This document shows positions 2,199 to 26,802 of a stretch of 32,000 bases of DNA, one piece after another. The DNA comes from Nanobdellota archaeon (GTDB lineage: Archaea; Nanobdellota; Nanobdellia; Nanobdellales; Nanobdellaceae). The position numbers and the translations under genes are program-made. The stretch is taken from NCBI GenBank assembly GCA_042850255.1, contig AP031373.1, positions 210,001 through 242,000 of the forward strand. Direction: 5' to 3'. The notes under the pieces were generated by a model, which saw only the letters and a program-made list of their open reading frames with translations, searched no databases and was not told the origin of the DNA. Positions within the stretch are counted from its first letter, which is position 1, and the number at the start of each line of letters is the position of its first letter.

Positions 2199-2206
2199 AA
2201 TAATTG

Positions 2207-5872: not shown

Positions 5873-6702
5873 ACTTTTTAGTTAAAAAATTATATCCATA
5901 TTTTAAGAATAAAAAATACGATATATATTATACTGAATTCAAAGTTTCTATTGAAGAATATATAAAAATAACTTTAGAATATTCTTTTATTGCCTTTATA
6001 TTATCATTTTTATCTTTATCATTTATTTTTATATTTATTTTAAGATTTTATAATATAGTATTATTCCTTGTTAGTTTATTCTTTGGAATAATTGTTGGAT
6101 CTTCAGTATTCTTTTATTTTTATTTTTATCCTTCTATGGCAAAGGCAGATTATGTTAAAGATATAGAAGATAATTTACCGTTTTTTGCATTATACTTTTA
6201 TTCTTATTCAGGTTCTGGAATGAATTTAATAGATATATTTAGATTATTAAATAAAGAAAAAAGATTTGGTAATATTAATAAAGAAATATCATATTTCTTA
6301 TCTTTAATAGATGTATTTGGTTATGATTTATTATCTGCATTGCTAAATTTAGCAAATAAAACGCCCTCTCAAAAATTTAAAGAATTTATATTTGGATTGA
6401 TATCTGTTATAAGATCTGGAGGATCCTTAAGAGATTATGCAAAAATATATGCAAAAGAACAAATAGAGGATTATGAAATACAATTAAAATCTTATAACGA
6501 AAAGGCTAACTTATGGATAACATTTTATGCATTCTTTTTTGTTACATTCCCAATAGTATTATTAATTTTAGCATTTTTATTTTCAATAGCTTCTGGTAAT
6601 ATTTCAATATTAAATTCATTAACATTTTTATTTGTAGTAATTATTCCTTTTTCATATATTGCATATTTATATATGATACATATATATCAACCAAAAATTT
6701 AA
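5869..6702 (+). CDS. type IV pilus platform membrane protein, single T2SSF-like domain (FlaJ/TadC-like)
   Basis: It overlaps the ATPase gene (ATGA). It is polytopic, with a cytoplasmic helical segment (DIEDNLPFFALYFYSYSGSGMNLIDIFRLL ... SGGSLRDYAKIYAKEQ) flanked by TM helices. At 277 aa it is about half the size of a two-domain FlaJ. Confidence 0.7.
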   Translation: MNFLVKKLYPYFKNKKYDIYYTEFKVSIEEYIKITLEYSFIAFILSFLSLSFIFIFILRFYNIVLFLVSLFFGIIVGSSVFFYFYFYPSMAKADYVKDIEDNLPFFALYFYSYSGSGMNLIDIFRLLNKEKRFGNINKEISYFLSLIDVFGYDLLSALLNLANKTPSQKFKEFIFGLISVIRSGGSLRDYAKIYAKEQIEDYEIQLKSYNEKANLWITFYAFFFVTFPIVLLILAFLFSIASGNISILNSLTFLFVVIIPFSYIAYLYMIHIYQPKI

Positions 6703-11954: not shown

Positions 11955-12527
11955 ATGAAAAATAATTTTTTATTAATAATATCTGGAATTATTTCTTTAA
12001 TAATTTTATTTATTATTTTGTCTTTAATAAAAATTAATAATTACAATTTAGAAAAAACTACAATATATTTAAATAATCAAAATATTACATTATATAAATT
12101 GAATTTAAATATACAAAGTTGTTACCAATTTTTTACTAATGGATATTTTATAATTTATCCAATATATTATTTACCAGAGCTTGGGATTCCTGCAAGAGAA
12201 TATGTTAATATATCAAGTATTATAGTATGTAATGAAAGTTTACAAATAAATAAAACAATAAGCATATGTTCCCCACTTGTTATTTGTCCAACAATATGTA
12301 CAACACAAGGTTGTGCTTGTAGTAAAGAATGTTATAATGTTACATATTATTTAAATATCTCATCTCCAATAATAATAATAAACAATTCTCAAAATACATT
12401 TTTTATAAGATATAATAAAAATATTTATTCTTCTACTAATAATATAGATGAAGAAAAAATAGCAAATAATTATTTATATGATATCATAATAAATTATATA
12501 AAAAATATACCAACAATAATAGTATGA
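11955..12527 (+). CDS. N-terminally anchored Cys-rich exported protein, unknown function
   Basis: It has an N-terminal TM or signal helix (LLIISGIISLIILFIILSL), a Cys cluster (CSPLVICPTICTTQGCACSKECYN) and N-x-S/T sequons. Confidence 0.4.
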   Translation: MKNNFLLIISGIISLIILFIILSLIKINNYNLEKTTIYLNNQNITLYKLNLNIQSCYQFFTNGYFIIYPIYYLPELGIPAREYVNISSIIVCNESLQINKTISICSPLVICPTICTTQGCACSKECYNVTYYLNISSPIIIINNSQNTFFIRYNKNIYSSTNNIDEEKIANNYLYDIIINYIKNIPTIIV

Positions 12528-13189
12528 ACTTAGCAGTATTATTTTCAGGAGGAAAAGATTCTAATTATTCATTATATATTTCTTCAAAATATCGTAATAT
12601 ATCTGTATTATTAAATATTGTTCCTGAAAATAATGAAAGTTATTTATATCATTATATAAATTATAATATAACAAAATTGCAATCAGAAGCTTTAAATATT
12701 CCTTTAGAAACATTTTATGTAAGTAAAGATGAAGAAAAAGTACTAGAAGATGCATTAAAATATTTAAAGGAAAAATATAATATTGAAGGAATTGTAACAG
12801 GAGCAATAAGATCTGTATATCAAAGTACAAGATTTCAAAGAGTATGTAAAAAATTAAATTTATGGTGTTTTAATCCTTTATGGTTAAGAAATGAAAAAGA
12901 ATATTTACTTGAATTATTAAAAAATAATTTTCAATTTATTATAACGGGTTGGTATACATATCCTTTAGATATAGATATTTTAGGAAAAATTGTAGATGAA
13001 AATATTATAAATAAACTATTAGAGTATGGGGAAAAATATAAAATAAATATTGCTGGAGAAGGAGGCGAATATGAAACATTAGTTTTATATCAACCTTTAT
13101 TTAAAAAAAGAATAGTAATTGATGAATATGAAATAAATATTCAAAAGAATTATGCAGAATTTATAATTAAAAAAGCTCATTTACAATGA
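12524..13189 (+). CDS. dph6: diphthine--ammonia ligase (Dph6 / MJ0570-family PP-loop ATP pyrophosphatase)
   Basis: It has the PP-loop VLFSGGKDS at the N-terminus and the GEGGEYETLVL motif near the C-terminus. It is about 220 aa. Confidence 0.8.
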   Translation: MNLAVLFSGGKDSNYSLYISSKYRNISVLLNIVPENNESYLYHYINYNITKLQSEALNIPLETFYVSKDEEKVLEDALKYLKEKYNIEGIVTGAIRSVYQSTRFQRVCKKLNLWCFNPLWLRNEKEYLLELLKNNFQFIITGWYTYPLDIDILGKIVDENIINKLLEYGEKYKINIAGEGGEYETLVLYQPLFKKRIVIDEYEINIQKNYAEFIIKKAHLQ

Positions 13190-13866: not shown

Positions 13867-15804
13867 TTATTCTTCTACCTTTTCTTTATCTTTTTCCTTT
13901 CCTCCTCTTCTTCTAGATTCTACCAATATTGCTGCAATTATTATTATTGCCAATGCTACTAATATCCAGAATATTATTGCTTCGGATGGCAATGATATAG
14001 ATGTAACTGGAACTCCTGTTGATGTATATGTTTCATTTAATGAATACAATAATTCTCCATTTTGTGCATTTATTATATTTACATATACTGTTACATTACT
14101 ATTTTCTGCAGTTACATTTAATGGAATTTGTTCTGTATACATTCCTCCAATTTGTACTTGTTCTTCTTCTGGATATACCTCTCCACCTACTGCATATGCT
14201 TGTATTATTAAATTATATATTTGTGTTGAATTTGAAGATAATACTAAGTATATTGTTTTATTCTTTCCAATTGTTAATTGTTCATATCCAATTAATGATG
14301 CTGTAATTGGTTTATATACTGGTTGTGTTCCATTTACATATATATTGTATGTATATTGTTGTGTTATTCCATTATAATTGAATACAAATGTTATTGGATA
14401 ATATCCTGCTTCTAATCCTTCTGGTACATATATTACTACTGGCAATTGTGTAGGTGTGCTTGGTGATAATGTTATTGTTGATAATTGTTGAAATAGATTA
14501 AATTGTTGAGATTCTACTATTGGTGTTACTTCTATACTCATTGGTAAATTACTTTCTAATTCTAAGTATAATTCTATATATTCTCCAGGTTTTACATTAA
14601 ATGTATTTTGATATACATTTAATACATCTACTGGTTGGATATTTTGTTGATTTACTGCTACCGTATAATTATATTCATTAATTTCTACTCCATTTTCATA
14701 TAGATATAATACTATTGTATAATATCCTGGTGCCAATCCTACAGTATTTAATGGTAATGTTAATTCTACTTGTTGTTGTGGACTTACTAATTGAGAAGTT
14801 TCTAAATTATATATTAAATCTCCATATTGATCATATACTAATAATTGTGCTGTTGCATTTGCTGTTTGGTATCCGGGATTTTCCAATAATATATTTATAT
14901 TATATGTTGATGATTGTAATTTACTTAATAAATTGAAGTTTGGTGATATTGATATTACTTGTAATAATTCTCCATTTTCATTATTTGATACATAGAAAGA
15001 TTGTGTTGCATATTGTGTTAATTCCTCTCCATTGTTTAATACAACATTTAATTGTTCTGATACATACATTTGTCCTTGTACATTTTGGAAATAAGAACTT
15101 GGTATACCTACTGTTAATAAATTCTCTCCTGGTTGTAAATTAACATTTTCTTGTGTTTGATATATAATATTTCCTTGAGAATTGTATAATGTTAATGTTA
15201 ATGTTGATGATTGTATATTTGTTTCTGTATTTTGTAAATATACTATTGATTGTACATTTAATCCATATTCTTCTGCTTGTTGTTGTGATACAACTTCTGG
15301 TAATTGTACTATGGATAATGATAAATTATATGGCAAATATGTTATATTATACATTTCTTCTCCAGATACTATTTCTTCCTGTCCATTTGGGTATATTAAT
15401 GATATATTTGCTTGTACTGTAATATTATTTAATGTACTTACAAAACATACTCCATTACCACAACTCTCTACACTTTCATTTGCCAAAGCTAATAATTCTA
15501 CAGGATTTACTGATACTGTGTATATATCATTTCCTGTGCATACTTGTATTGGTTCATAATATTGGTATATTATACTTCCATTTGGCCCATATATATTAAA
15601 ATACAAATAGGACTCAAATGGTGTTTGATTTACTCCTAGTAATTTTACTATGAATGTTAGATTATTGCTAACGTAATTCGCTAATAATGTTGGAGTTTGC
15701 GGTTCTATTATTATTTCTTGTGACTTTACTGCTAATGCTGCTATTCCTAATGCAAAAAATAATGGTATTATTTTCTTAAATGTTGCTACTATTTTGTTAT
15801 CCAT
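13867..15804 (-). CDS. cell-surface (S-layer-like) protein with repeated beta-sandwich modules and a C-terminal TM anchor
   Basis: It has an N-terminal signal/TM (IIPLFFALGIAALAV). A motif of the type L-Y-N-x-x-G-x-I-I-Y recurs (FNIYGPNGSIIYQY, LTLYNSQGNIIYQT, LLVYDQYGDLIYNL, NIINAQNGELLYSL). The C-terminus has the TM IIFWILVALAIIIIAAILV followed by the basic tail RRRGGKEKDKEKVEE. Composition is Q/E/V/Y-rich and K-poor. Confidence 0.7.
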   Translation of the reverse strand: MDNKIVATFKKIIPLFFALGIAALAVKSQEIIIEPQTPTLLANYVSNNLTFIVKLLGVNQTPFESYLYFNIYGPNGSIIYQYYEPIQVCTGNDIYTVSVNPVELLALANESVESCGNGVCFVSTLNNITVQANISLIYPNGQEEIVSGEEMYNITYLPYNLSLSIVQLPEVVSQQQAEEYGLNVQSIVYLQNTETNIQSSTLTLTLYNSQGNIIYQTQENVNLQPGENLLTVGIPSSYFQNVQGQMYVSEQLNVVLNNGEELTQYATQSFYVSNNENGELLQVISISPNFNLLSKLQSSTYNINILLENPGYQTANATAQLLVYDQYGDLIYNLETSQLVSPQQQVELTLPLNTVGLAPGYYTIVLYLYENGVEINEYNYTVAVNQQNIQPVDVLNVYQNTFNVKPGEYIELYLELESNLPMSIEVTPIVESQQFNLFQQLSTITLSPSTPTQLPVVIYVPEGLEAGYYPITFVFNYNGITQQYTYNIYVNGTQPVYKPITASLIGYEQLTIGKNKTIYLVLSSNSTQIYNLIIQAYAVGGEVYPEEEQVQIGGMYTEQIPLNVTAENSNVTVYVNIINAQNGELLYSLNETYTSTGVPVTSISLPSEAIIFWILVALAIIIIAAILVESRRRGGKEKDKEKVEE

Positions 15805-15828
15805 ATGTTAACATTGACAAAAAAATTT

Positions 15829-16605
15829 TTAAATGTTACTACCCTTTATAAGGTATATGTCACTGTCACCTGGGATATATTTTAATATATCATTAATATC
15901 TACCTTGAATTTTTCGCTTATAAATTTGCCTATTTCTGAAGGCTTTTTATTTCCTGGCACTAAAATAATATAATTATTGAATTTATTTATAATATTTTCT
16001 GGAACTCCAGGATATATTTCATAATCTTTAAATCCTATAGCAATTTCTAACTTTACTTTTAAATAATTTTTATTACCATAAATCATAAAAGATCCTTTTT
16101 TAATATACATACCTGCAGGAACTTTCTTAGATACTTGTTCAGGATATACATAATATACATCTATTGAAGATAATCTATTTTTCCATGCTCTAGAATATGA
16201 ACCTACAAATTTTGCAGATTCATATATATCATTTTCTTTTGCATTTTGGCCATTTTTTAATATACCAAATGGAGATCCAATTATATCTGCATGAAATACT
16301 AGATCATTTTTCTCTAAATATTTTTTAATTAATATTTCATTACTATTAGCATCTGTTCCACATACTAATAAAAAATTATTTGATGTTATCATCCATCTAA
16401 ATTTTTCATACCATTTTTTATTTCTCTTCTTTTCTTCTTTCTTTTTTTCTATATTTATTTCTTCTTCTATATTCTTTAATTTTTCCTCATTCTCCTTTAT
16501 TAATTCCTCTATTCTTTTCTTTTTATTTTTTAATTCTTTAATTTTTTCATATAATTCATTTATATTTTCATATATACTTTTCCTAACATCAATTTTTATC
16601 TCCAT
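15829..16605 (-). CDS. NFACT-family protein, C-terminal half only (coiled coil + NFACT-R/DUF814; Rqc2/NEMF homolog fragment)
   Basis: A K/E-rich coiled coil is followed by KWYEKFRWMITSNNFLLVCGTDANSNEILIKKYLEKNDLVFHADIIGSPFGILK and YSRAWKNRLSSIDVYYVYPEQVSKKVPAGMYIKKGSFMIYG. This is the typical NFACT-R signature. Confidence 0.75.
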   Translation of the reverse strand: MEIKIDVRKSIYENINELYEKIKELKNKKKRIEELIKENEEKLKNIEEEINIEKKKEEKKRNKKWYEKFRWMITSNNFLLVCGTDANSNEILIKKYLEKNDLVFHADIIGSPFGILKNGQNAKENDIYESAKFVGSYSRAWKNRLSSIDVYYVYPEQVSKKVPAGMYIKKGSFMIYGNKNYLKVKLEIAIGFKDYEIYPGVPENIINKFNNYIILVPGNKKPSEIGKFISEKFKVDINDILKYIPGDSDIYLIKGSNI

Positions 16606-17795: not shown

Positions 17796-18292
17796 AGATA
17801 TTTATAACTGGAAAACCTGGAGTTGGAAAAACAACATTAATTAAAAAAATATATTCAAATTTTCCAGAAAAATTTTTTGGATTTTATACTGAAGAAATAA
17901 GAGAAAATAAAGAAAGAATAGGATTTAAAATAATAACTACTTGGGGAGAAGAATTATTATTAGCATCTAAAAATATAAGGACAGATTATAGAGTGAAAAA
18001 TTATTTTGTAATAAAAGAAAATATAGATATAGTTTCTGAAAAAATTTTAGAAAATATTAATATAAATAAAGTAATATTAATAGATGAAATAGGAAAAATG
18101 GAATTATATTCAGAGAAATTCAAAGAACTGGTAAATATAATAATAAATGATGAAAAAATAAATGTTTTAGCTACTATAAATTTATACTATTTGCCAATGG
18201 TGAAAAACAATTATATTTATTTAAAAAGAGAAGATTTCAATAAAATTTATAAAAAAATTGAAAGTATAATAAAAAATGGTAATAAAAATTAA
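17792..18292 (+). CDS. THEP1/MJ1559-family nucleoside-triphosphatase
   Basis: It has the P-loop MKIFITGKPGVGKTTLIKKI and Walker B ILIDEIGKMEL. It is about 166 aa and overlaps the MazG-like gene (ATGA). Confidence 0.8.
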   Translation: MKIFITGKPGVGKTTLIKKIYSNFPEKFFGFYTEEIRENKERIGFKIITTWGEELLLASKNIRTDYRVKNYFVIKENIDIVSEKILENININKVILIDEIGKMELYSEKFKELVNIIINDEKINVLATINLYYLPMVKNNYIYLKREDFNKIYKKIESIIKNGNKN

Positions 18293-18488
18293 AACTAATA
18301 AAGATTTATGTATAGGTTCTGCAGCTTGTGTGGCAGCATGTCCTGAGATATTTTATTTAGGAAATGATGGAAAAGTAGAAATAAAAACAGATACAGTTGA
18401 TGACAAAAAAGATCCTGATCTAGCAGAAAAGGTAAAAGAAGCTGCACAGTCTTGTCCAACAGGTGCGATAACACTTAATGAAAGTTAA
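18276..18488 (+). CDS. small single-cluster ferredoxin 1 (Ser at the second ligand position)
   Basis: The motif is CIGSAACVAACPEIF ... QSCPTGAI, i.e. C-x2-S-x2-C-x3-CP plus a distal CP. It is 70 aa. Confidence 0.8.
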   Translation: MVIKIKTNKDLCIGSAACVAACPEIFYLGNDGKVEIKTDTVDDKKDPDLAEKVKEAAQSCPTGAITLNES

Positions 18489-18687
18489 AGTAGAAGTAGA
18501 TAAGGAAACATGTATAGGTTGTGGAACCTGCATTGCCATAGCTCCCGAAATTTTTGATTTTGATTCAGATGGTAAATCTAAACCAAAAATTGATATTATT
18601 GATGATCCAAAAATGATAGAAAAAGTTAAAGATTCTGAAGCTGCATGCCCTACACATTCTATAAAAGTAACTGAAATAAGAGATTAA
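18478..18687 (+). CDS. small [4Fe-4S] single-cluster ferredoxin 2
   Basis: The motif is CIGCGTCIAIAPEIF ... AACPTHSI, i.e. C-x2-C-x2-C plus a distal CP. It is 69 aa. Confidence 0.85.
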   Translation: MKVKVEVDKETCIGCGTCIAIAPEIFDFDSDGKSKPKIDIIDDPKMIEKVKDSEAACPTHSIKVTEIRD

Positions 18688-18896
18688 TGAAATACATAGT
18701 AGATATAGATTACAAGAAATGTATTAATTGTTTTGCTTGTTATTTAATAAATAAAGATATATTTGGGGTAAAAAATGGAAAAATATATTTAAATAAAAAG
18801 GTTGTCGAAGATGAAAAGGAAATAAATGATGTAATTAATGCATCTAATGCTTGTCCTGTAAACGCTATATATTATGAAGAGTTGGAGGAAGATTAA
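18687..18896 (+). CDS. small [4Fe-4S] single-cluster ferredoxin 3
   Basis: The motif is CINCFACYLINKDIF ... NACPVNAI. It is 69 aa, and its start overlaps the previous stop (TAATG). Confidence 0.8.
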   Translation: MKYIVDIDYKKCINCFACYLINKDIFGVKNGKIYLNKKVVEDEKEINDVINASNACPVNAIYYEELEED

Positions 18897-18922: not shown

Positions 18923-19513
18923 ATGGCATTTTATAATGTAATACTAAGTATATTAACTAATATAGGATTCTTTAATATAATATTACCTTTCCTACTTATA
19001 TATTCTATAATATATGGTTTACTTGCTAAATATCAATTAATAGGAAATCCTTATAAAGAAGATGCAGAAGGAAAAGCAACTAGAAGTTTAATATCAATGA
19101 TATCTGCTGCAGTAGGATTTTTGGTAGTAGGAGCTACAAATGTTGTTTTATCTATATTTAATTTAATTCCATATATTGTTTTATTTTTATTAACAGTATT
19201 TTTCTTATTGATTGCAATTGCTCCATTTGTAACAAATGAAAAGGGTATGAATTTACAAGGTAGAACTGGAAAAATATTATTGGGAGTATCAATAGTAATA
19301 TTCTTTATTGTAGTTGCATTTTCTTTAGGACTATTTAGTTATATAGCATCATTATCACATCATATATCAGTATCTTCATCATCTTTACAATATATAGAAC
19401 AAATAGTATACACAGTTTTAATACTGGGAGTACTATTTGGAGTAGTATACTGGGCTACAAAGCCTCCATCTAAGCAAAGTACAGGCCAACAAAGTCAATC
19501 TAATCAAAAATAA
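18923..19513 (+). CDS. 4-TM membrane protein, paralog 1 of a tandem triplet (unknown family)
   Basis: It has the conserved TM1 motif GFFNIILPFLLIYSIIYGLL, four predicted TM helices and the C-terminal W-A-T-K-P-P-S-K followed by a Q/S-rich tail. Confidence 0.6.
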   Translation: MAFYNVILSILTNIGFFNIILPFLLIYSIIYGLLAKYQLIGNPYKEDAEGKATRSLISMISAAVGFLVVGATNVVLSIFNLIPYIVLFLLTVFFLLIAIAPFVTNEKGMNLQGRTGKILLGVSIVIFFIVVAFSLGLFSYIASLSHHISVSSSSLQYIEQIVYTVLILGVLFGVVYWATKPPSKQSTGQQSQSNQK

Positions 19514-20082
19514 TGGTATATAATCTTACAAATATAATAACTAATGTAAATCTTACAAATACTTTTTACTCCTCTTTAACTCAATATGGTTTATTTGATG
19601 TAATTTTACCATTTTTATTAATATTTTCTCTTACATTTATGATAATAGAGTTATCTGGATTATTAAAAACTAGCAATGACGATGCAGTAGGAAGGAGATT
19701 AAGTGCTTTATTCTCTTTTTCATTTGCTCTATTAGCAATGGCAAATAAAAGTTTAATTAGTTGGTTATATTCTTTTATACCTCAAGCTTCGATATTAATA
19801 TTAGCATTCTTTTTATTGGCAATTGTAATGGGAATATCTGGAAAGGGAGTGCCAGGATATATAAGAGCTATATTGGGATTAATAGTAATTGGAATATTAC
19901 TTTGGTTGTCTATTAACGCACTAAAAATTGGAGGAAACGCTACACCAGCTACTGGCGCATTGTCATATGTATTAGATTACTTAATACAGTCGGGATTACT
20001 AGGAATATTAATAATAATACTAATATTAGTAATTGTAATGGCCTGGGCAGTAGGAGGTAAACAAGAACAAAATCAATCATAA
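19513..20082 (+). CDS. 4-TM membrane protein, paralog 2
   Basis: TM1 is GLFDVILPFLLIFSLTFMII. It has the same helix layout as paralog 1 and the C-terminal WAVGGKQEQNQS. Its start overlaps the previous stop (TAATG). Confidence 0.6.
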   Translation: MVYNLTNIITNVNLTNTFYSSLTQYGLFDVILPFLLIFSLTFMIIELSGLLKTSNDDAVGRRLSALFSFSFALLAMANKSLISWLYSFIPQASILILAFFLLAIVMGISGKGVPGYIRAILGLIVIGILLWLSINALKIGGNATPATGALSYVLDYLIQSGLLGILIIILILVIVMAWAVGGKQEQNQS

Positions 20083-20083
20083 A

Positions 20084-20752
20084 ATGGACCCAACATCTTT
20101 ATTATATACATTATTTTCCGAATATGGAGTATTTACAATAATTGCTCCATTTTTATTAATATTTTCCTTAACTTATGGTTTATTGAGAAAAACTAATTTA
20201 TTTGGAAGAGATAACCCAACAAAAGAAAAACTTTATGGTATAATATCGTTTGCTATTTCTTTCTATTATATATATAAATTAAGCGATGTAATATTTACTC
20301 AGGATTTCATATCCTTCTTCTTCTTTGAAGTATTAGTATTATTCTTCCTATTAATGGTTATTGCATTATTAGTAGCTATGGGAAAAGGTTTAGATATAGA
20401 AGTAAAAGATGATGAAAAATCTATATTTGAAAATTATAAGAAAACTGGACAAAATGCATTTGTAGGCTTCTTAGGTTTATTGGTATTATTTGCATTTATG
20501 TATGCATCTTCGTTTTCATTTACATCATTTGGAAATCAATCTATGGGTATTATTTCACAAATATTTACTATATTAATAGAGACAGGATTATTACCTATAA
20601 TCATAATTATAGGAATATTATTAGGTGTAATCTCTTGGGTTACTAGGCCTCCAAAGAAATCCAATGTTGGTAAAAAAGCTAAACTTTGGATGTTTACTCC
20701 AGAAGCTACATTAGAGGATATAGTTAAAGAATTTTCTAAACTGAATAAATAA
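20084..20752 (+). CDS. 4-TM membrane protein, paralog 3
   Basis: TM1 is GVFTIIAPFLLIFSLTYGLL. The C-terminal motif is WVTRPPKKSN, with an extra roughly 30-aa tail. Confidence 0.6.
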   Translation: MDPTSLLYTLFSEYGVFTIIAPFLLIFSLTYGLLRKTNLFGRDNPTKEKLYGIISFAISFYYIYKLSDVIFTQDFISFFFFEVLVLFFLLMVIALLVAMGKGLDIEVKDDEKSIFENYKKTGQNAFVGFLGLLVLFAFMYASSFSFTSFGNQSMGIISQIFTILIETGLLPIIIIIGILLGVISWVTRPPKKSNVGKKAKLWMFTPEATLEDIVKEFSKLNK

Positions 20753-20793
20753 AATAAAATTACAATTATAAACTATTTTTTATAATTATATTT

Positions 20794-21900
20794 ATGGTTG
20801 TATTTGTTACACATGATAAGGAGATAAAAGATATTGTAAAGTATATTGAACAAGGAGAAGATATAATAGTAACAGATAATAAGGGGAAATATTTAGGGAT
20901 ATTACAAAATGATAGAGCAATTAGGTATTTACATAGACCTGAAACCAAAATAGAAAAAATAATGATAAAATTGAAACCTTTAAAGAATTATGATATTATC
21001 GAAATTATTGAAAAAATTATAAATTCAAATTTAAGATCTGTAGTAATAAAAGAAGATGATAAAATAGAATTTGTTAATATTTTTGATATATTAAATAATA
21101 TAATAGAAGATAAAGATATATTAAAAAAATTAAATATTGAAGAAGTAATGAATCCTGTTTATACCATTGAAGAAAAAGAGAGTGTTAAAAAAGCAATAGG
21201 ATTAATGAAGGATAAAGGTATATCTAGGTTAGTAATTGTTAATGAAAAAGGAGAAGCTGTAGGAATATTATCATTATCAGATATAATTAGAAGCATATTA
21301 ATAGAAGATAATGAAAAAATAAGAACCCCAAAAGAAGAGTATTTTGATGTAGAAGTAAGATCTATAATGAGTAATAAGCTAATATTTATAAATAAAGGGG
21401 AAAGTATAGAAAATTTAATTAAATTAATGATAAATAACAAAGTATTTGCAATACCTGTATTAGATAAGGGAAAACCAATAGGTATAATAACTGCTAAAGA
21501 TATATTAATACATTATTTACAATATAAAAAGGAAAAAGTTTATAACTTAGTAGTTCATGGTGTTCCCTTAGATGAAATAGATGAAGGTTATATAAAAAAT
21601 AAATATGAAGAATTTTATAAAAAGTATAAAAATGTATTAGGAGAAAACATAAGATTAATATTACACGTTAAAAAAATAAATGAGGATATTAAGAATAAAA
21701 AAATATACTATCAAATAAAAGCAAAATTAATAACTGATAAAGGAAAATTTAATGTAGATGAACATGGATATGATTTTTATTCTACAATAAGAGATATATT
21801 TGAAATATTATCAAATGAAGCAGAGAAAGTAAAACATAAAAATGAGAGAGAATATATGATGGAAAGTATGTTTAAAAATGATATAATAAAATACATATAA
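20794..21900 (+). CDS. four-CBS-domain protein with C-terminal HPF/RaiA(S30AE)-like domain
   Basis: CBS signatures include GISRLVIVNEKGEAVGILSLSDIIRS and VFAIPVLDKGKPIGIITAKDILIH, plus two weaker N-terminal CBS units. The C-terminal roughly 115 aa (from VYNLVVHGVPLDEIDEGYIKNKYEEFYKKY ... IRLILHVKK ... YYQIKAKLITDKGKFNVDEHGYDFYSTIRDIFEILSNEAEKVKHKNER) follow the beta-alpha-beta-beta-beta-alpha residue pattern of E. coli HPF as I recall it. The CBS part is secure; the HPF-like part is about 0.55. Confidence 0.75.
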   Translation: MVVFVTHDKEIKDIVKYIEQGEDIIVTDNKGKYLGILQNDRAIRYLHRPETKIEKIMIKLKPLKNYDIIEIIEKIINSNLRSVVIKEDDKIEFVNIFDILNNIIEDKDILKKLNIEEVMNPVYTIEEKESVKKAIGLMKDKGISRLVIVNEKGEAVGILSLSDIIRSILIEDNEKIRTPKEEYFDVEVRSIMSNKLIFINKGESIENLIKLMINNKVFAIPVLDKGKPIGIITAKDILIHYLQYKKEKVYNLVVHGVPLDEIDEGYIKNKYEEFYKKYKNVLGENIRLILHVKKINEDIKNKKIYYQIKAKLITDKGKFNVDEHGYDFYSTIRDIFEILSNEAEKVKHKNEREYMMESMFKNDIIKYI

Positions 21901-21902
21901 TA

Positions 21903-22523
21903 ATGATAATAGTACCTGGAGATTTTGTTAAAACAAAAGACGAAAATGTATATGAAAATAATGGAGAATATCATTCAAAATATATAGGATTATTAGAGGA
22001 AAGTAAAAATAAAATAACAAAATTATTTGGATATTATATACCAAAACTAAACGATATAGTAATAGGAAAAGTAATAGATGTATTACCTATAGGATGGTTA
22101 ATAGATATAAATTCTCCATATTTAGGATCCTTATTATTAAAAGATATGAATATGGAAAATGTAGATCCAAATGATTTATATACATATGAAGATTATATTT
22201 TATGCCAAATAATAAAAATAACAAAAAATAAAATAATAAATTTGGGAATAAAGAAAAAAGAAAAACTAAATGATGGATTAATAATAGATATAGATCCTGT
22301 AAAAGTACCTAGAATAATAGGAAAAAATTCTTCTATGTTAAATATGTTAAAAGAATTATTGAAAGTTAAAATAATTGTTGGACAAAATGGGAGGATATAT
22401 ATAAATGGAGATGAGGTAAATGTATTAAGAACAGTAAATGCTATAAAATTTATTGAGGAAAATTCTTATAAAAAAGGTTTGACTGAAAAGGTTAAAGAGA
22501 TGATTGAGAAAAATATAATATGA
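21903..22523 (+). CDS. rrp4: exosome RNA-binding cap subunit Rrp4 (S1 + KH)
   Basis: The S1-like segment is IVIGKVIDVLPIGWLIDINSPYLGSLLL. The KH segment is VPRIIGKNSSMLNMLKELLKVKIIVGQNGRIYING. It lies directly upstream of, and overlapping, rrp41. Confidence 0.8.
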   Translation: MIIVPGDFVKTKDENVYENNGEYHSKYIGLLEESKNKITKLFGYYIPKLNDIVIGKVIDVLPIGWLIDINSPYLGSLLLKDMNMENVDPNDLYTYEDYILCQIIKITKNKIINLGIKKKEKLNDGLIIDIDPVKVPRIIGKNSSMLNMLKELLKVKIIVGQNGRIYINGDEVNVLRTVNAIKFIEENSYKKGLTEKVKEMIEKNII

Positions 22524-23263
22524 GATTTGACGGAAGAGAATATAATCAAATAAGAAAAATAGATATAAAGTTAAATGTAATAGAAAATGCAAAAGGATCT
22601 GCAATATTTTCATTTGGAGATACGGTTGCATTAGCTGCAGTATATGGACCAAAACCTTCAAAGATGTCTATAGATTATGATAAGGCATTTTTAAGAGTTA
22701 GATATAATATGCTAACATTTTCTGTTCCAGAAAGGAAAAAACCCGTACCTGGAAGAAGAGAAATAGAATTATCTGAGGTAATAAAAAGAGCGTTAGAACC
22801 TGCATTATTTTTGGAAGAATTACCTGGAAGTATTATTGATATATATGTAGAAATATTAAATGCTGATGCGGGAACAAGAACTGCAAGTATCAATGCTTCA
22901 TCTCTAGCATTAGCATTAGCAGGAATTCCAATGAAAGATTTAGTTACTGCAGTTGCTGTAGGTAAAATTGGACAAAGAATTGTAGTAGATTTAAATAAAA
23001 ATGAAGAAGATTATGACTCAGAAAAGTTAAAAAATGATCCTGAAAAGAAAAAATATATAGAATATTATGGAGAAGGAAGAGCCACAGATATACCTGTCGC
23101 AGTAATACCTTCTGAAAAAAGATTTACCTCTATACAATTAGATGGAGAAATATCTAAGAATGAATTAAGAGAAGCATTGACTCTAGGTTTAGAAAAATGT
23201 ATAGAAATAAGGAATATAATGAAAAAACATTTATTGGAATATTTTTCTATAAATAAATTATAA
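22520..23263 (+). CDS. rrp41: exosome RNase PH-like catalytic subunit Rrp41
   Basis: It has RFDGREYNQIRKI, GSAIFSFGDTVALAAVYGP, ADAGTRTASINASSLALALAGIP and DIPVAV. It is 247 aa. Confidence 0.85.
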   Translation: MRFDGREYNQIRKIDIKLNVIENAKGSAIFSFGDTVALAAVYGPKPSKMSIDYDKAFLRVRYNMLTFSVPERKKPVPGRREIELSEVIKRALEPALFLEELPGSIIDIYVEILNADAGTRTASINASSLALALAGIPMKDLVTAVAVGKIGQRIVVDLNKNEEDYDSEKLKNDPEKKKYIEYYGEGRATDIPVAVIPSEKRFTSIQLDGEISKNELREALTLGLEKCIEIRNIMKKHLLEYFSINKL

Positions 23264-23314
23264 AATTTTTAATTAAACAAAAATTTTTAAATACCAGAAA
23301 ACTTAACCAATAAT

Positions 23315-24343
23315 ATGAAATCTTTATTTGGATTTGGAAAACCTAAAAATGATTATAATAATATTAGAGAAGGATATATAAAAATTATAGACGAAACAGA
23401 AAAAGAATATTATAAAAAATTGAAAGAAATAGTAAATACTTTGGAAAAAATAAATAAAGATATGAAAAAAGCAAAGGATCCAAATGAATTAATAGAAATG
23501 TTTAAGAAGCATAAGTGGAGAATAAATGCTAGAGGTTGGCAAATTAGATTTGGATTCGAAAAAATTCAAAAAGCAATAAATGAATTAGAAAGAATAAAAA
23601 GCTCTTTAAATCAAAATGATCCATTAATATATGAAATTGATAGAAATATAAATAGACTTAGATCTCGCAATGAACAATTTGCAAGATTGGAAGAAAATAT
23701 AAAAAAATTATTTGTTATTTTAGATAGGGGTATTAATATTAATCCAAATGAAATGGTCGGTATACTTGAGAATATAAAAAATGAAGCAATTATGTTGGAA
23801 AGGTTAGAAACTTCTGGAGATCTTCTACTTAGAAAAAAGGATAAAAAACTAAGAGAAACTACTGAAAAACTTATAAAAACTACCAGGAACTTAGCATATG
23901 TTATACACACCATGTTAACTAGAAATCCATCATTAACAATTGAAAAGAATATAATAGGAAAAACTAATAAATTGCAAAAACTAATAAAAATTTTAGATGA
24001 TATAAAGAATTCCATAAAGGATATTTCAAAATATATAAATAATCAGGAAATATTAAAAGATTTAAATAGTATAGGAACAGAAGTTGATATTATAAAACGA
24101 TCTATCGACAATATATACAGAAATTATAAAAATATTCCAAATTTAAATGATCAATTAAAAAGTATTATAAATATCACCAAAAAAATATCGAATATTATAG
24201 ATAAAGAATTAATTCCAAAAATTGAAGAATATAAAGGTGGCTATGATATAATAGATAAAATAAATAATGAGATAAAAAAACCTCTTAATAACATAGAAAA
24301 AGAAATAAATTTAATTATTAGAGTTTATTCTAAGGAGTCGTAA
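23315..24343 (+). CDS. soluble long-helical (coiled-coil) protein, member of a 3-gene paralogous cluster
   Basis: It has no TM segment and is K/E/N/I-rich with heptad-like sequence. The N-terminus is MKSLFGFGKPK. The segment QKLIKILDDIKNSIKDISKYI is shared with the next two genes. Confidence 0.6.
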   Translation: MKSLFGFGKPKNDYNNIREGYIKIIDETEKEYYKKLKEIVNTLEKINKDMKKAKDPNELIEMFKKHKWRINARGWQIRFGFEKIQKAINELERIKSSLNQNDPLIYEIDRNINRLRSRNEQFARLEENIKKLFVILDRGININPNEMVGILENIKNEAIMLERLETSGDLLLRKKDKKLRETTEKLIKTTRNLAYVIHTMLTRNPSLTIEKNIIGKTNKLQKLIKILDDIKNSIKDISKYINNQEILKDLNSIGTEVDIIKRSIDNIYRNYKNIPNLNDQLKSIINITKKISNIIDKELIPKIEEYKGGYDIIDKINNEIKKPLNNIEKEINLIIRVYSKES

Positions 24344-24403
24344 TCCCTTATTTTTATTACCAATTTTAAAACTTTATAATTTACAAGATTTTTTATATTA
24401 ATT

Positions 24404-25666
24404 ATGAATAAGATTAGATTATTATATTTATATATATTATTACTTCCTCTATTAAATATTATATTTAGTCAATCAAATAACACATCTTTAGGAACTGGTA
24501 CCGTATTAAATCCTGTAAATCTATTAAATTTTAACATAGGCAATATAAGTAATAATAATTTTATAATTGGTGTATTAAAATGGTATGCCCCAATACTATA
24601 CAATTTAGCAGGATCTCCTTCAAATTTTTTATTATATTTAATCGGTATAATGGCTATTATATTTTTTACAATTCGTTTTTTTATAAGAGATTTAGATAGA
24701 GCTTCTGGATTTTTTATTTTCATCTTTTTTATCGCTATTATACATTTCATTTTTACATTTCTACCGGGACTTTTAATAATTGGGGGTATAATAGTATTAT
24801 TTTTAATAGCTCTATTTTCTAGGTTTTTAGAATGGACTCATAATCAGACAAGATTTATTAGAAGAGCTTTTAGAAAAATGAAGAATACAGAATTCAGATA
24901 TCTTTTTTCAAGATTATATCAACCAATGAATTCTTATAGATATTGGTTGTCAAATAATTATAAAAGAATAGATTTGATAGAAAAAAATATCGATAATAAT
25001 ATAATACCATTAGAAAAAAATATTCGAAAATTACCAAAAAATATAAAGGATAAAGATACAAATAGAGCATCTAGAGAATTAATAAAAATTTTAGATAATA
25101 TTAAAAGAGAACATAAAAAAATAGATAAAGAATTTAGGCAAATTATTTCAAATATCCAGAAAGGAACAAATATCCGTAATTCAAAAGATGTTATTAGATT
25201 AACAGATATGAATATTATAAATAGATCAAAAAGATTAAGAAATAAAATAAAAAAGACTACCGGAAAAATTAAAAATTATATAACAAAATTAAAGCATTTA
25301 GAAAAAAGATACCCACATATGTCTCCTTTTATAGAAAGTATAGTAGGGTCACTAGTAATAATACATAATAACCTTGGAAATATGTACAATATTTTAAATT
25401 ATACAGAATCTTTTGAAAATAATATTTTAAATCAATTTACTCAATATGCAAAATTTATAGTACAACAAGAAGAAATAGCAAGAAGGATTAATCGAAAATC
25501 TTATAATTTACAAAAACAGGCAACAAATGTATATAAAAATACAAGAAACTTAAGAATAAATAATTTTCCAAAAATAGGAAATGCGCCAGTAAGTAACTTG
25601 GGATCGCCTTTAATAAAACCACTTAATATGAATATTACAAAAGGTTCTATGTCAGGAAAGATATAA
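24404..25666 (+). CDS. membrane-anchored long-helical protein (signal peptide + 3 TM + cytoplasmic helical tail), paralog
   Basis: It has a signal peptide (LLYLYILLLPLLNIIFSQS), an external GTGTVLNP motif, three TM helices and a roughly 270-aa basic helical tail containing RELIKILDNIKREHKKIDKEF. Confidence 0.6.
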   Translation: MNKIRLLYLYILLLPLLNIIFSQSNNTSLGTGTVLNPVNLLNFNIGNISNNNFIIGVLKWYAPILYNLAGSPSNFLLYLIGIMAIIFFTIRFFIRDLDRASGFFIFIFFIAIIHFIFTFLPGLLIIGGIIVLFLIALFSRFLEWTHNQTRFIRRAFRKMKNTEFRYLFSRLYQPMNSYRYWLSNNYKRIDLIEKNIDNNIIPLEKNIRKLPKNIKDKDTNRASRELIKILDNIKREHKKIDKEFRQIISNIQKGTNIRNSKDVIRLTDMNIINRSKRLRNKIKKTTGKIKNYITKLKHLEKRYPHMSPFIESIVGSLVIIHNNLGNMYNILNYTESFENNILNQFTQYAKFIVQQEEIARRINRKSYNLQKQATNVYKNTRNLRINNFPKIGNAPVSNLGSPLIKPLNMNITKGSMSGKI

Positions 25667-25728
25667 TACCTATTATTTAGCAACTACATAAATAATATTT
25701 AAAAATTTGAACGGACATATTTTTAGCA

Positions 25729-26802
25729 ATGAGTGGTATGATAATTGCAATGTTTCAAGGATCCAGTAGTCAAGGATCTGGCAGTGTACTTAATCCAACA
25801 AGTACAATCCCGCTTAGTAATCCTAATGTTGATTTTTCTTCTATTCAAAATTCTATAAATAGTATAATAGGAAAAGGATATTTTATTTTATACAACCAAA
25901 TAGGTGTTCCTCCATTATTAAGCTTTATATTAGTAACAATTATGATAACCGTACTAATATATATGTTCGGATCGTTATTTTTTAGAAGAGTATTGAATCA
26001 AGGACAATTATTTGAAGATCATATAAGAAGACCTTTAATAATATTGTCAATTGCAATTGGTCTTTTTGGTGCATATACAATTGGATATTTAGTATATATA
26101 TTCCAATACATATTATATGTAATCGCAGGCATATTTTTTGCAATGATAATAATCCTAGGAATTAGTATGGGAATGGGAACCTATAGAGCTGGAAGAGCAA
26201 TGATGCATGCTGTTGCTACAAAGGAATATGGATATGCTAGAACTAGATATCAAGCTGAAAGTTTAATGTATGATGCAAGAAGAGATCTAGCTAGAGTTAA
26301 ATATGATGTAAAAGCTTTAGAAAGATTATTAAAGAAAAAGCATGGGAAAATAATACCAACAGGAGAATTTAGAGAATATAGGAAAATATTGAAAGATATA
26401 GAGAAACACTCTATAGAATTCTTAGATGGCGTCCAGGCTACAATTAATAGTTATATATGGACTCCACTGAGGAACCAACAACAAACTCCTCAAACTTTAC
26501 AACAGCTGGATGCTTCACTAGCAAGTATTGTAAACGCAGCCAACAATTATTTAAATGGTGTTCAACAGAGCTTTAATAATATACAAACCTTTTATAATAA
26601 TTTAATTCATCAACAGCAAAACACACCAGGTCAACAACAAGCTGTACAATTGGTTCATTTCATTCATACAGAAATATTTAAATCAAAAAACAAAATAAAC
26701 GCTAAAATAAATGATGTTAATGCACTTATACAAGATTGCATTAATCTAATTAATCACCTTGGACACCATTCAACTGCTGGAACTCTAAATCGTATAAATT
26801 AA
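25729..26802 (+). CDS. membrane-anchored long-helical protein (3 TM + Q-rich helical tail), paralog
   Basis: It has an N-terminal GSGSVLNP motif, three TM helices and a tail containing EYRKILKDIEKHSIEFLDG and Q-rich helices (QQQTPQTLQQLDASLASIVNAANNYLNGVQQSFNNIQ). Confidence 0.6.
   Translation: MSGMIIAMFQGSSSQGSGSVLNPTSTIPLSNPNVDFSSIQNSINSIIGKGYFILYNQIGVPPLLSFILVTIMITVLIYMFGSLFFRRVLNQGQLFEDHIRRPLIILSIAIGLFGAYTIGYLVYIFQYILYVIAGIFFAMIIILGISMGMGTYRAGRAMMHAVATKEYGYARTRYQAESLMYDARRDLARVKYDVKALERLLKKKHGKIIPTGEFREYRKILKDIEKHSIEFLDGVQATINSYIWTPLRNQQQTPQTLQQLDASLASIVNAANNYLNGVQQSFNNIQTFYNNLIHQQQNTPGQQQAVQLVHFIHTEIFKSKNKINAKINDVNALIQDCINLINHLGHHSTAGTLNRIN

What the first reader, a model, noticed from the sequence alone, without database searches (positions are those of the whole stretch)
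20794..21900. Four CBS domains fused to an HPF/RaiA-like domain: candidate energy-sensing ribosome hibernation factor next to the exosome genes
The first roughly 245 aa contain two CBS pairs, which are classic adenosine-nucleotide sensors. The last roughly 115 aa (DNA about 21538-21880) read VYNLVVHGVPLDEIDEGYIKNKYEEFYKKYKNVLGENIRLILHVKKIN...YYQIKAKLITDKGKFNVDEHGYDFYSTIRDIFEILSNEAEKVKHKNER. This tracks E. coli HPF as I recall it (LNITGNNVEITEALREFVTAKFAKLEQYF..VYVVLKVEK...[40 protein letters not shown]). Shared features are the strand-G start, the helix with Y/F-x-x-K, the hydrophobic strand ending in K, the D-x-Y-x-x-I helix and the K-x-K-x-K end. HPF/S30AE-family proteins are regarded as bacterial/plastid factors. 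A CBS-gated version in an archaeon, 2 nt upstream of rrp4-rrp41, would suggest nucleotide-controlled ribosome silencing.
Basis: inference. Interest (0 to 1): 0.7.

Follow-up and report, generated by a model that had tools for sequence, protein, structure and literature searches.

The report
Nanoarchaeal HibA ribosome hibernation factor

Summary
The ORF at 20794-21900 (+, 368 aa) is real and conserved.

- **CBS tetrad.** Residues 1-245 form a four-CBS module (Pfam CBS E=2.7e-28). The predicted fold matches AMP-binding and ribosome-binding CBS tetrads.
[quoted passage not shown] A family profile hits P. abyssi HibA at 7.7e-29 and more than 20 bacterial or plastid HPF/RaiA/YfiA structures at 5e-8 to 1e-4. 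The AlphaFold model (pLDDT 92.7) returns only hibernation factors as its top 36 PDB matches.
- **Collinear with HibA.** The whole protein aligns end to end with the cryo-EM-characterised P. abyssi HibA (E=8.8e-23).

The premise of novelty is out of date. HibA (Nat Commun 2026) and AHA (bioRxiv 2026) describe this exact fusion. It occurs in about 47% of archaeal genomes, binds AMP better than ADP or ATP, and plugs the 30S mRNA/tRNA channel and the 50S tRNA sites.

One thing is not mentioned in the main text of those two papers. In every Nanoarchaeales locus examined, hibA abuts or overlaps rrp4-rrp41 (gap -4 to +2 nt in 12 of 12 loci measured). Two deep-branching relatives carry a ~150-aa ORF or ~590-nt gap between hibA and rrp4. 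The linkage is lost outside that group.

Verdict: interpretation supported, a new member of a known kind, low-to-moderate interest.

The parts
20753..20793 (+). 41-nt A/T-rich spacer upstream of hibA with T-run and TATA-like elements (ATTATAAA, TTTTTTATAA). It is a possible archaeal promoter for a hibA-rrp4-rrp41 transcript.
   Evidence: Sequence. Similar T-run/TATA-like strings lie 10-25 nt before the ATG in orthologous loci. This is inference only: in a genome of about 23% GC such motifs are not statistically informative, and no transcription data exist.
20794..21900 (+). hibA/AHA ortholog, 368 aa. It is identical to NCBI 'hypothetical protein YN1_2670 [Nanoarchaeota archaeon]'.
   Evidence: ORF. 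100% match to P0001. Collinear with P. abyssi HibA 9sr9_H, query 17-341 against 29-366, E=8.8e-23. 471 clusters at E<=1e-30, with most of the 150 listed hits 360-400 aa long and collinear.
20794..21303 (+). CBS1 (residues ~1-50), CBS2 (~53-110) and CBS3 (~113-170). CBS3 carries the canonical ribose/phosphate motif GILSLSD at residues 157-163.
   Evidence: Pfam CBS. Secondary structure of model mae6c6b5d7246. Fold matches to CBS tetrads. G157, D163 and I164 are invariant in the orthologs. Motif scan.
21304..21348 (+). Extended CBS3-CBS4 loop (residues ~171-185, EDNEKIRTPKEEYFD). It is the positional equivalent of the HibA 'PTC loop' / AHA 'loop 3'.
   Evidence: It aligns to P. abyssi residues 190-207 with a 3-residue deletion. 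It is the lowest-confidence stretch of the CBS module in the model. Across orthologs it is variable and net acidic to neutral. The loop's role at the peptidyl-transferase centre comes from the literature.
21349..21528 (+). CBS4 (residues ~186-245) with the canonical motif GIITAKD at residues 230-236. Together with CBS3 it forms the Bateman module that binds AMP/ATP in HibA and AHA.
   Evidence: Best Pfam CBS stretch at residues 188-239. T233, A234, K235 and D236 are invariant, and G230 is nearly invariant, in the orthologs.
21529..21834 (+). HPF/RaiA-like domain (residues 246-347): beta1 251-255, alpha1 264-282, beta2 287-298, beta3 303-314, beta4 317-325, alpha2 328-347. It has an extended beta2-beta3 hairpin relative to E. 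coli HPF.
   Evidence: Models (domain pLDDT 92.7). Foldseek top 36 hits are all HPF/RaiA/YfiA/pY. Profile A3 against PDB. PF02482 hit by 10 of 12 and 38 of 57 members. 9-residue gap in E. coli HPF in the HMM alignment. Basic core, pI 8.6-9.4.
21835..21897 (+). C-terminal tail or helix extension (residues 348-368). It is conserved in Nanoarchaeales (K361 and Y367 invariant).
   Evidence: Alignment. Modelled as a continuation of alpha2 at lower confidence. In P. abyssi the HibA C-terminal end lies at the mRNA exit channel near the anti-SD sequence. The equivalent position here is inferred.
21903..22523 (+). rrp4, the exosome RNA-binding cap subunit. It starts 2 nt after the hibA stop codon.
   Evidence: NCBIfam NF003181 6.4e-55. 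Pfam KH_6 and RRP4_S1. The junction is -4 to +2 nt in 12 of 12 measured Nanoarchaeales loci.
22520..23263 (+). rrp41, the exosome RNase PH catalytic subunit. It overlaps rrp4 by 4 nt. No rrp42 follows.
   Evidence: TIGR02065 2.2e-74 against Rrp42 model 8.7e-14. Pfam RNase_PH 1.9e-34. Conserved downstream of hibA-rrp4 in every Nanoarchaeales locus that extends that far.

Best explanation
The gene encodes the Nanoarchaeales ortholog of the archaeal ribosome hibernation factor HibA (also called Hib or AHA).

**Mechanism, by homology with the P. abyssi and Haloferax volcanii cryo-EM structures.**
- The basic C-terminal HPF/RaiA domain lodges in the mRNA/tRNA channel of the small subunit at the A/P decoding region.
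- The tethered N-terminal CBS tetrad occupies vacant tRNA sites on the large subunit, with its CBS3-CBS4 loop able to reach the peptidyl-transferase centre.
- Together they hold an idle 70S ribosome closed, block translation and shield rRNA from nucleases.
- The CBS3/CBS4 Bateman module probably binds adenine nucleotides, AMP preferentially, giving a possible link to energy state.

**What is shown here.** The domain architecture, collinear homology to HibA, the HPF fold, conserved CBS3/CBS4 nucleotide motifs, and a conserved tight hibA-rrp4-rrp41 gene cluster in Nanoarchaeales.

**What is inferred.** Ribosome binding, nucleotide binding, co-transcription with the exosome genes, and any nucleotide gating.
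For: - Full-length collinear alignment to P. abyssi HibA chain 9sr9_H, E=8.8e-23. The chain is identified as HibA.
- C-terminal domain profile A3: HibA 7.7e-29, chain 9l96_a 3.5e-13, and more than 20 HPF/RaiA/YfiA/pY chains at 5e-8 to 1e-4.
- PF02482 is the only recurrent Pfam family: 10 of 12 and 38 of 57 members.
[quoted passage not shown] Its top 36 Foldseek PDB hits are all hibernation factors, with TM (target-normalised) 0.30-0.82, mostly >=0.66, and rmsd 2.1-4.7 A, mostly <=3.5 A.
- The CBS tetrad fold matches AMP-bound SSO3205, MJ1225, AMPK-gamma and the ribosome-bound Sri and Dri factors.
- GILSLSD and GIITAKD motifs are conserved in CBS3 and CBS4. That is where HibA binds AMP/ATP and AHA binds two AMP.
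- An extended CBS3-CBS4 loop is present.
- The family is large and of uniform length.
- One JGI ortholog is already auto-annotated 'CBS domain-containing protein/ribosome-associated translation inhibitor RaiA'.
- Function of the family: delta-hibA and delta-AHA strains lose 70S ribosomes or ribosomal proteins and recover slowly from stationary phase.
Against: - No experimental data exist for any Nanoarchaeales member.
- The single-sequence matches of this protein's C-terminal domain to HPF models are below the curated thresholds (17 bits against 23.7). The link therefore depends on profiles and predicted structure.
- The CBS3-CBS4 loop is 3 residues shorter than in P. abyssi. It is net acidic (-3) and poorly conserved, so insertion into the peptidyl-transferase centre may differ or be absent.
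- The CBS module on its own is no closer to HibA (1.8e-15) than to a Sri chain (7.5e-16).
- Nucleotide control of ribosome binding was not seen for P. abyssi HibA.
Confidence: 0.9

Rival explanations
1. It is a HibA-derived protein that Nanoarchaeales have repurposed as an exosome-associated factor. It would be co-translated with Rrp4 and Rrp41 and would regulate or target 3'-5' RNA decay, for example by acting as an AMP-sensing exosome regulator or by coupling rRNA protection directly to exosome activity, rather than acting only as a stand-alone hibernation factor.
For: - The hibA-rrp4-rrp41 order holds in all Nanoarchaeales loci, down to 36% HibA identity.
- The stop/start gap is -4 to +2 nt in 12 of 12 measured loci.
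- The only promoter-like spacer lies upstream of hibA.
- In archaea the exosome is the main 3' ribonucleolytic activity, and hibernation factors are thought to protect the 16S 3' end.
Against: - The adjacency sits inside a larger syntenic block: Cas4-like, NTPase, ferredoxins and three membrane proteins are conserved upstream as well. It may simply reflect clade-wide synteny in compact genomes.
- It is absent outside the clade. Other family members lie next to uS19/RNA polymerase or other genes.
- A ~150-aa ORF (L022) or a ~590-nt gap (MC-1) separates hibA from rrp4 in the two deepest relatives.
- All sequence and fold features are those of a ribosome binder.
Confidence: 0.07
2. It is a generic CBS-domain metabolic or transcriptional regulator (HhpR-like, IMPDH-related or MetX-associated), whose C-terminal domain resembles HPF only superficially.
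For: - The best NCBIfam hit for the full-length protein is the HhpR model, at 5.1e-12.
- Public names for orthologs include 'homoserine O-acetyltransferase', 'predicted transcriptional regulator' and 'Dehydrogenase'.
- The CBS module alone cannot be assigned to the HibA clade.
Against: - The HhpR score is 45.6 bits against a cut-off of 520.
- Pfam finds no acyltransferase, dehydrogenase or DNA-binding domain.
- The C-terminal domain is HPF by profile, by recurrent Pfam family and by fold.
- HhpR and the CM-3 family lack an HPF domain.
Confidence: 0.02

Closest known systems
HibA (Hib) of Pyrococcus abyssi / Thermococcus barophilus: Madru et al., Nat Commun 2026 (PMC13324472); PDB 9SR9-9SRF, 9T7H
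   Same: [quoted passage not shown]
- Collinear alignment over residues 17-341, E=8.8e-23.
- A long loop between CBS3 and CBS4.
- G-h-h-S/T-x-x-D motifs in CBS3 and CBS4, where AMP/ATP binds.
- An enlarged beta2-beta3 hairpin and a long terminal helix or tail relative to bacterial HPF.
   Different: - 368 aa against 392 aa.
- The loop is 3 residues shorter and acidic.
- Sequence similarity is low, with E=8.8e-23 over 325 aligned residues.
- The gene is fused into an rrp4-rrp41 cluster here. Adjacency to exosome genes is not mentioned in the main text of the HibA paper.
- The host is a reduced-genome ectosymbiont (contig of 773 kb).
AHA (HVO_2384) of Haloferax volcanii: Souza et al., bioRxiv 2026 (PMC12934967)
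   Same: It has the same CBS-tetrad plus HPF architecture and is presented by its authors as related to Hib/HibA. Two AMP molecules bind at the CBS3/CBS4 junction, loop 3 sits in the peptidyl-transferase centre, and the HPF domain sits in the 30S A/P sites.
   Different: The HVO_2384 sequence was not compared directly here. Nucleotide occupancy and ribosome contacts are unknown for the Nanoarchaeales protein.
Bacterial/plastid HPF, RaiA (YfiA, protein Y) and PSRP1/pY: Pfam PF02482, TIGR00741
   Same: The core fold is the same (TM up to 0.82, rmsd 2.1-3.5 A for most chains), and there is profile-level homology (5e-8 to 1e-4). By inference the 30S binding site is the same, as shown for HibA and AHA.
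   Different: - There is no CBS module in the bacterial proteins.
- There is no long-HPF dimerisation domain here.
- The archaeal domain has insertions and a longer terminal helix.
- This protein scores below the curated Pfam and NCBIfam cut-offs.
Other archaeal CBS-tetrad hibernation factors: Dri (Pyrobaculum; 9E6Q/9E7F) and SriA-D / ARC-A/P (Methanosarcina; 9ZNF-9ZNI)
   Same: The CBS-tetrad fold is the same, and these factors bind ribosomal tRNA/mRNA sites. ATP-dependent release is reported for ARC.
   Different: They lack an HPF domain. Dri has two tetrads, and Sri and ARC are stand-alone tetrads. According to both papers they are largely mutually exclusive with HibA/AHA across genomes.

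Membership tests
HibA/AHA archaeal hibernation factor | N-terminal module of four tandem CBS domains (two Bateman modules) | tested here: met
   Pfam CBS 2.7e-28. The model shows four beta-alpha-beta-beta-alpha units. Foldseek aligns 253-290 columns to CBS tetrads at E down to 5.8e-16.
HibA/AHA archaeal hibernation factor | [quoted passage not shown] | tested here: met
   Topology. The top 36 PDB fold hits are all HPF/RaiA/YfiA/pY. Profile A3 hits the HibA C-terminal domain at 7.7e-29.
HibA/AHA archaeal hibernation factor | Full-length collinear sequence homology to a characterised member | tested here: met
   phmmer against 9sr9_H (P. abyssi HibA): a single stretch, query 17-341 against target 29-366, E=8.8e-23.
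HibA/AHA archaeal hibernation factor | Extended loop between CBS3 and CBS4 (PTC loop / loop 3) | tested here: met
   Residues ~171-185 align to P. abyssi 190-207. They are 3 residues shorter, acidic and variable. Whether the loop reaches the peptidyl-transferase centre cannot be tested here.
HibA/AHA archaeal hibernation factor | Adenine-nucleotide binding at the CBS3/CBS4 interface | not testable with these tools
   Only the sequence prerequisites were checked. GILSLSD (157-163) and GIITAKD (230-236) are conserved in the orthologs. Binding data exist for P. abyssi HibA and H. volcanii AHA only.
HibA/AHA archaeal hibernation factor | CBS module belongs to the monophyletic HibA-CM clade (sister to CM-5/SriA-like) | tested here: inconclusive
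   With the CBS module alone against PDB, HibA (1.8e-15) and Sri chain 9zni_6 (7.5e-16) are tied. No phylogeny was built.
HibA/AHA archaeal hibernation factor | Binds the 30S decoding channel and 50S tRNA sites, inhibits translation and preserves 70S ribosomes | not testable with these tools
   Inferred from homology. The HPF core is basic, pI 8.6-9.4 across orthologs.
Pfam Ribosomal_S30AE (PF02482) / NCBIfam TIGR00741 HPF-YfiA | Score at or above the curated gathering or trusted cut-off | tested here: not met
   17.0 bits against 23.7 (PF02482), and 17.3 bits against 40.9 (TIGR00741). It is therefore not a member by the curated thresholds, although homology is supported by profiles and fold.
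HhpR-type CBS transcription regulator (CM-3) | Stand-alone CBS tetrad scoring above the NF053603 cut-off, with no HPF domain | tested here: not met
   45.6 bits against a cut-off of 520. An HPF domain is present.

The most novel reading that the evidence does not exclude
In Nanoarchaeales the hibernation factor gene is co-transcribed and translationally coupled with the exosome genes rrp4 and rrp41. These reduced-genome symbionts would then make the ribosome protector and the main 3'-5' RNase as one expression unit. HibA could act as the dedicated shield of the 16S rRNA 3' end and decoding channel against the co-expressed exosome, or could even be a physical partner of the exosome. This would be a lineage-specific wiring of ribosome preservation to RNA decay that is not mentioned in the main text of either family paper.
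Probability: 0.2. Interest if true: 0.45.

Novelty: new member of a known kind. Interest (0 to 1): 0.25.

Why it matters
The fusion of an AMPK-gamma-like adenylate sensor to a bacterial-type HPF domain is important biology. It shows that HPF-based ribosome hibernation spans Bacteria and Archaea, and it links translation shutdown to energy sensing. That significance has already been claimed by the 2025-2026 HibA, Hib and AHA papers.

This locus adds three modest points:
1. The factor is retained, full-length and well conserved, in some of the smallest archaeal genomes (0.6-0.8 Mb obligate ectosymbionts). That argues it is close to indispensable for them.
2. It is mis-annotated or unannotated in public records ('hypothetical protein', 'homoserine O-acetyltransferase').
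3. Its tight, order-wide linkage to rrp4-rrp41 gives a testable hint that ribosome protection and exosome-mediated decay are co-regulated.

Tried and rejected
- **Domain-only database search.** Searching the 5.8-billion-protein database with the C-terminal-domain alignment A2 returned nothing at E<=1e-3. The domain is too short for that database size. I replaced this with the exhaustive representative search using the full-length profile and local domain extraction.
- **Fold search with the full model.** It was swamped by CBS-tetrad matches and did not report the HPF domain or HibA itself. I solved this by modelling the C-terminal domain alone.
- **Locus search with alignment A1.** The search for related loci failed because no stretch was conserved enough. 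I repeated it with the 11-sequence alignment A4. Its two peptide patterns did not recover Nanoarchaeum equitans, so presence there is undetermined.
- **Nanoarchaeales in the published survey.** I tried to read from the HibA paper's supplements whether Nanoarchaeales were scored HibA-positive. Only the genome list is legible; it includes Nanopusillus acidilobi and N. equitans.
- **PDB chain 9i5v_14.** I first took this chain ('RaiA', 401 aa) to be archaeal. The literature shows it comes from the Porphyromonas gingivalis ribosome. The origin of 9l96_a was not traced.
- **Rejected public annotations.** These were homoserine O-acetyltransferase, dehydrogenase/IMPDH-related and transcriptional regulator. 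No such domains are present.
- **Promoter scan.** I did not run the sigma-70 promoter scan, because it does not apply to archaea. The TATA-like motifs upstream are noted but carry no statistical weight at 23% GC.
Full report
**1. The observation**

The window is very A/T-rich (20-29% GC). Its genes match a Nanoarchaeota genome: the ORF's product is 100% identical to 'hypothetical protein YN1_2670 [Nanoarchaeota archaeon]' on a 773-kb contig.

An ATG-to-TAA ORF of 368 aa occupies 20794-21900 on the + strand. Its stop codon is followed after 2 nt by the ATG of a gene encoding Rrp4 (NCBIfam 6.4e-55). That gene overlaps by 4 nt a gene encoding Rrp41 (TIGR02065, 2.2e-74).

**2. The N-terminal two-thirds**

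Pfam detects CBS at E=2.7e-28 in three stretches. An AlphaFold2 model built on 17 orthologs (mean pLDDT 86.7, pTM 0.82) shows four CBS units at residues ~1-50, 53-110, 113-170 and 186-245. Foldseek against the PDB aligns 253-290 columns to CBS tetrads. These include AMP-bound SSO3205, MJ1225, AMPK-gamma and the ribosome-bound SriA-D and Dri factors, with E down to 5.8e-16.

CBS3 and CBS4 carry the canonical G-h-h-S/T-x-x-D motifs, GILSLSD at 157-163 and GIITAKD at 230-236. These are invariant or nearly so among the orthologs. CBS1 and CBS2 are degenerate.

**3. The C-terminal third**

As a single sequence it gives only sub-threshold hits: Ribosomal_S30AE at E=0.01 (17 bits against a cut-off of 23.7) and TIGR00741 HPF/YfiA at E=0.005. 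Both hits span nearly the whole model. The evidence then strengthens in four steps.

- a. Ten of 12 orthologous C-terminal domains independently choose PF02482 as their best family, and no other family recurs.
- b. A profile of those 12 domains against PDB sequences returns 19 hits. All but two are HPF/RaiA/YfiA-type proteins or chains carrying such a domain, including E. coli HPF (0.0011) and P. abyssi HibA (0.0014).
- c. An exhaustive HMMER search with the full-length profile finds a large family. There are 471 clusters at E<=1e-30, and most of the 150 listed hits are 360-400 aa long and collinear over profile positions ~4-355. A 57-member alignment of their C-terminal domains hits the HibA C-terminal domain at 7.7e-29, a second 406-aa CBS-domain chain (9l96_a) at 3.5e-13, and more than 20 bacterial or plastid HPF/RaiA/YfiA/pY chains at 5e-8 to 1e-4. 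Of the 57 members, 38 hit PF02482, with a best E of 2.9e-10.
- d. [quoted passage not shown] Its top 36 Foldseek PDB matches are all hibernation factors. TM normalised to target is 0.30-0.82, mostly at least 0.66, and rmsd is 2.1-4.7 A, mostly at most 3.5 A.

That condition is not met.

**4. What it is**

The whole protein aligns in one collinear stretch (query 17-341 against 29-366, E=8.8e-23) with PDB chain 9sr9_H. The data-availability statement of Madru et al. identifies that chain as P. abyssi HibA bound to ATP.

HibA is defined as a four-CBS module (residues 1-269) followed by an HPF/RaiA-like domain (270-392). The HPF-like domain has two archaeal-specific insertions, and a long 'PTC loop' (190-207) lies between CBS3 and CBS4. 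The same architecture was described independently as AHA in Haloferax volcanii. There, two AMP molecules sit at the CBS3/CBS4 junction and 'loop 3' sits in the peptidyl-transferase centre.

The present protein has each of these sequence and structure features:
- The loop aligns to residues ~171-185. It is 3 residues shorter, net charge -3, and variable among orthologs.
- E. coli HPF shows a 9-residue gap opposite this protein's beta2-beta3 hairpin in the profile alignment. P. abyssi HibA aligns across the same stretch without a gap.
- The terminal helix or tail is long and conserved.
- The HPF core is basic, with pI 8.6-9.4 across orthologs.

One membership criterion is unresolved. The CBS module on its own is not closer to HibA than to a Sri chain, and no tree was built.

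**5. How it most likely works**

This section is inferred from the characterised members.

- The HPF domain binds the 30S mRNA/tRNA channel, contacting h44, h28, h24, h23, uS12, uS9, uS19, uS11 and uS7.
- The CBS module samples three positions on the 50S: the peptidyl-transferase centre, uL5 and the L1 stalk. Together these occlude the A, P and E sites and hold an inactive 70S ribosome together.
- Deletion mutants lose 70S ribosomes or ribosomal proteins and recover slowly from stationary phase.
- The isolated HibA CBS module binds AMP, ADP and ATP with Kd of 12, 65 and 113 uM, but not GTP or GMP.
- Neither AMP nor ATP changed how HibA sits on reconstituted ribosomes. The AHA authors only hypothesise AMP-stabilised binding.

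'Energy-sensing' is therefore plausible, but 'nucleotide-gated' is not demonstrated for any member and is untestable here.

**6. Genomic context**

The order hibA, rrp4, rrp41 recurs in every Nanoarchaeales locus retrieved. These include Nanopusillus, Nanobsidianus, Nanobdella, Nanoclepta and unnamed Nanopusillaceae, at 40-76% HibA identity. The hibA/rrp4 junction is -4 to +2 nt in 12 of 12 measured cases, mostly an overlapping TAATG.

In the two deepest relatives the genes are not abutting. Isolate MC-1 (36% identity) has a ~590-nt gap, and the locus of P0025 has a ~150-aa ORF between hibA and rrp4. More distant family members are not next to exosome genes: one lies directly upstream of the uS19 gene and an RNA polymerase subunit gene, another among ribosomal-protein genes, and a third among unrelated genes.

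A 30-50-nt A/T-rich spacer with T-run and TATA-like strings precedes hibA in all loci. This is compatible with a promoter for the three-gene unit but is uninformative at this base composition.

Genes upstream are also syntenic across the clade: a Cas4-like nuclease, an NTPase, ferredoxins and three paralogous membrane proteins. The adjacency may therefore reflect general synteny. Only the near-zero spacing is specific to hibA-rrp4-rrp41.

A term search of the main text of the two family papers finds no mention of Rrp4, of Nanoarchaeota, or of adjacency to exosome genes. The HibA paper's Discussion does note that the exosome is the main 3' ribonucleolytic activity in archaea.

**7. Novelty and score**

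It occurs in 47% of 4,026 archaeal genomes, and 3,160 homologs were found in 17 phyla. One JGI ortholog already carries an automatic RaiA annotation.

This is a new, uncharacterised member of a known kind. The residual points of interest are its retention in minimal symbiont genomes, its mis-annotation in public records, and the clade-specific operon with exosome genes.

- Interest: 0.25.
- Most novel reading not excluded: functional coupling between HibA and the exosome, with probability about 0.2 and interest 0.45 if true.

Noticed in passing
window 22520-24343; loci L001, L003, L004, L006, L022: rrp41 is not followed by rrp42. The next ORF (23315-24343) is a coiled-coil protein with no Pfam match. 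The gene after rrp41 differs between Nanoarchaeales loci. The usual archaeal cluster is rrp4-rrp41-rrp42 (my own knowledge), so Rrp42 is either encoded elsewhere or missing in this clade.
   Followed up: partly
window 18923-20752: Three tandem paralogous membrane proteins (196, 189 and 222 aa) share an N-terminal ..ILPFLLIFSL.. motif and have no family assignment in the precomputed Pfam hits for their orthologs. They are conserved immediately upstream of hibA in nearly all Nanoarchaeales loci (tblastn with the third one).
   Followed up: partly
window 18276-18896: Three tandem, partly overlapping genes encode ferredoxin-like proteins of about 69 aa. One to three copies are found in the orthologous loci.
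   Followed up: no
window 23315-26802: Three consecutive ORFs (342, 420 and 357 aa) are low-complexity, coiled-coil or transmembrane proteins. The first two have no significant Pfam match (the third was not scanned), and the first has no tblastn match in any orthologous locus. This looks like a fast-evolving, lineage-specific block immediately after the conserved exosome genes.
   Followed up: no
window 13867-16605 (- strand): The NFACT-R protein (15829-16605) is only 258 aa. It carries just the tail of the NFACT_N profile (positions 369-422) at its N-terminus. The adjacent 645-aa ORF (13867-15804) has no Pfam hit. This may be a truncated or split NFACT/Rqc2-type ribosome quality-control gene.
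   Followed up: no
protein P0009 (Nanobdella aerobiophila, L001 6001-7104); PDB 9sr9_H; window 20794-21900: Public annotations of this family are misleading. The Nanobdella ortholog is named 'homoserine O-acetyltransferase', the P. abyssi HibA PDB chain is named 'Dehydrogenase', and the window protein is named 'hypothetical protein'. Only one JGI record names RaiA.
   Followed up: yes
L023 1015-2827 (protein P0027): A HibA family member outside the clade lies directly upstream of the uS19 gene and an RNA polymerase subunit L gene. In the P. abyssi structure HibA contacts the C-terminal tail of uS19.
   Followed up: no
L022 5186-5638; L020 ~5081-5667: In the two deepest-branching relatives, a ~150-aa ORF with no Pfam match (L022) or a ~590-nt gap (MC-1, L020) lies between hibA and rrp4.
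   Followed up: no
window 2204-3535, 6699-8903, 12524-13189: Other RNA and translation genes lie in the window: an RNase J-like beta-CASP nuclease (TTG start), aEF2, and a diphthamide synthase near aEF2.
   Followed up: no
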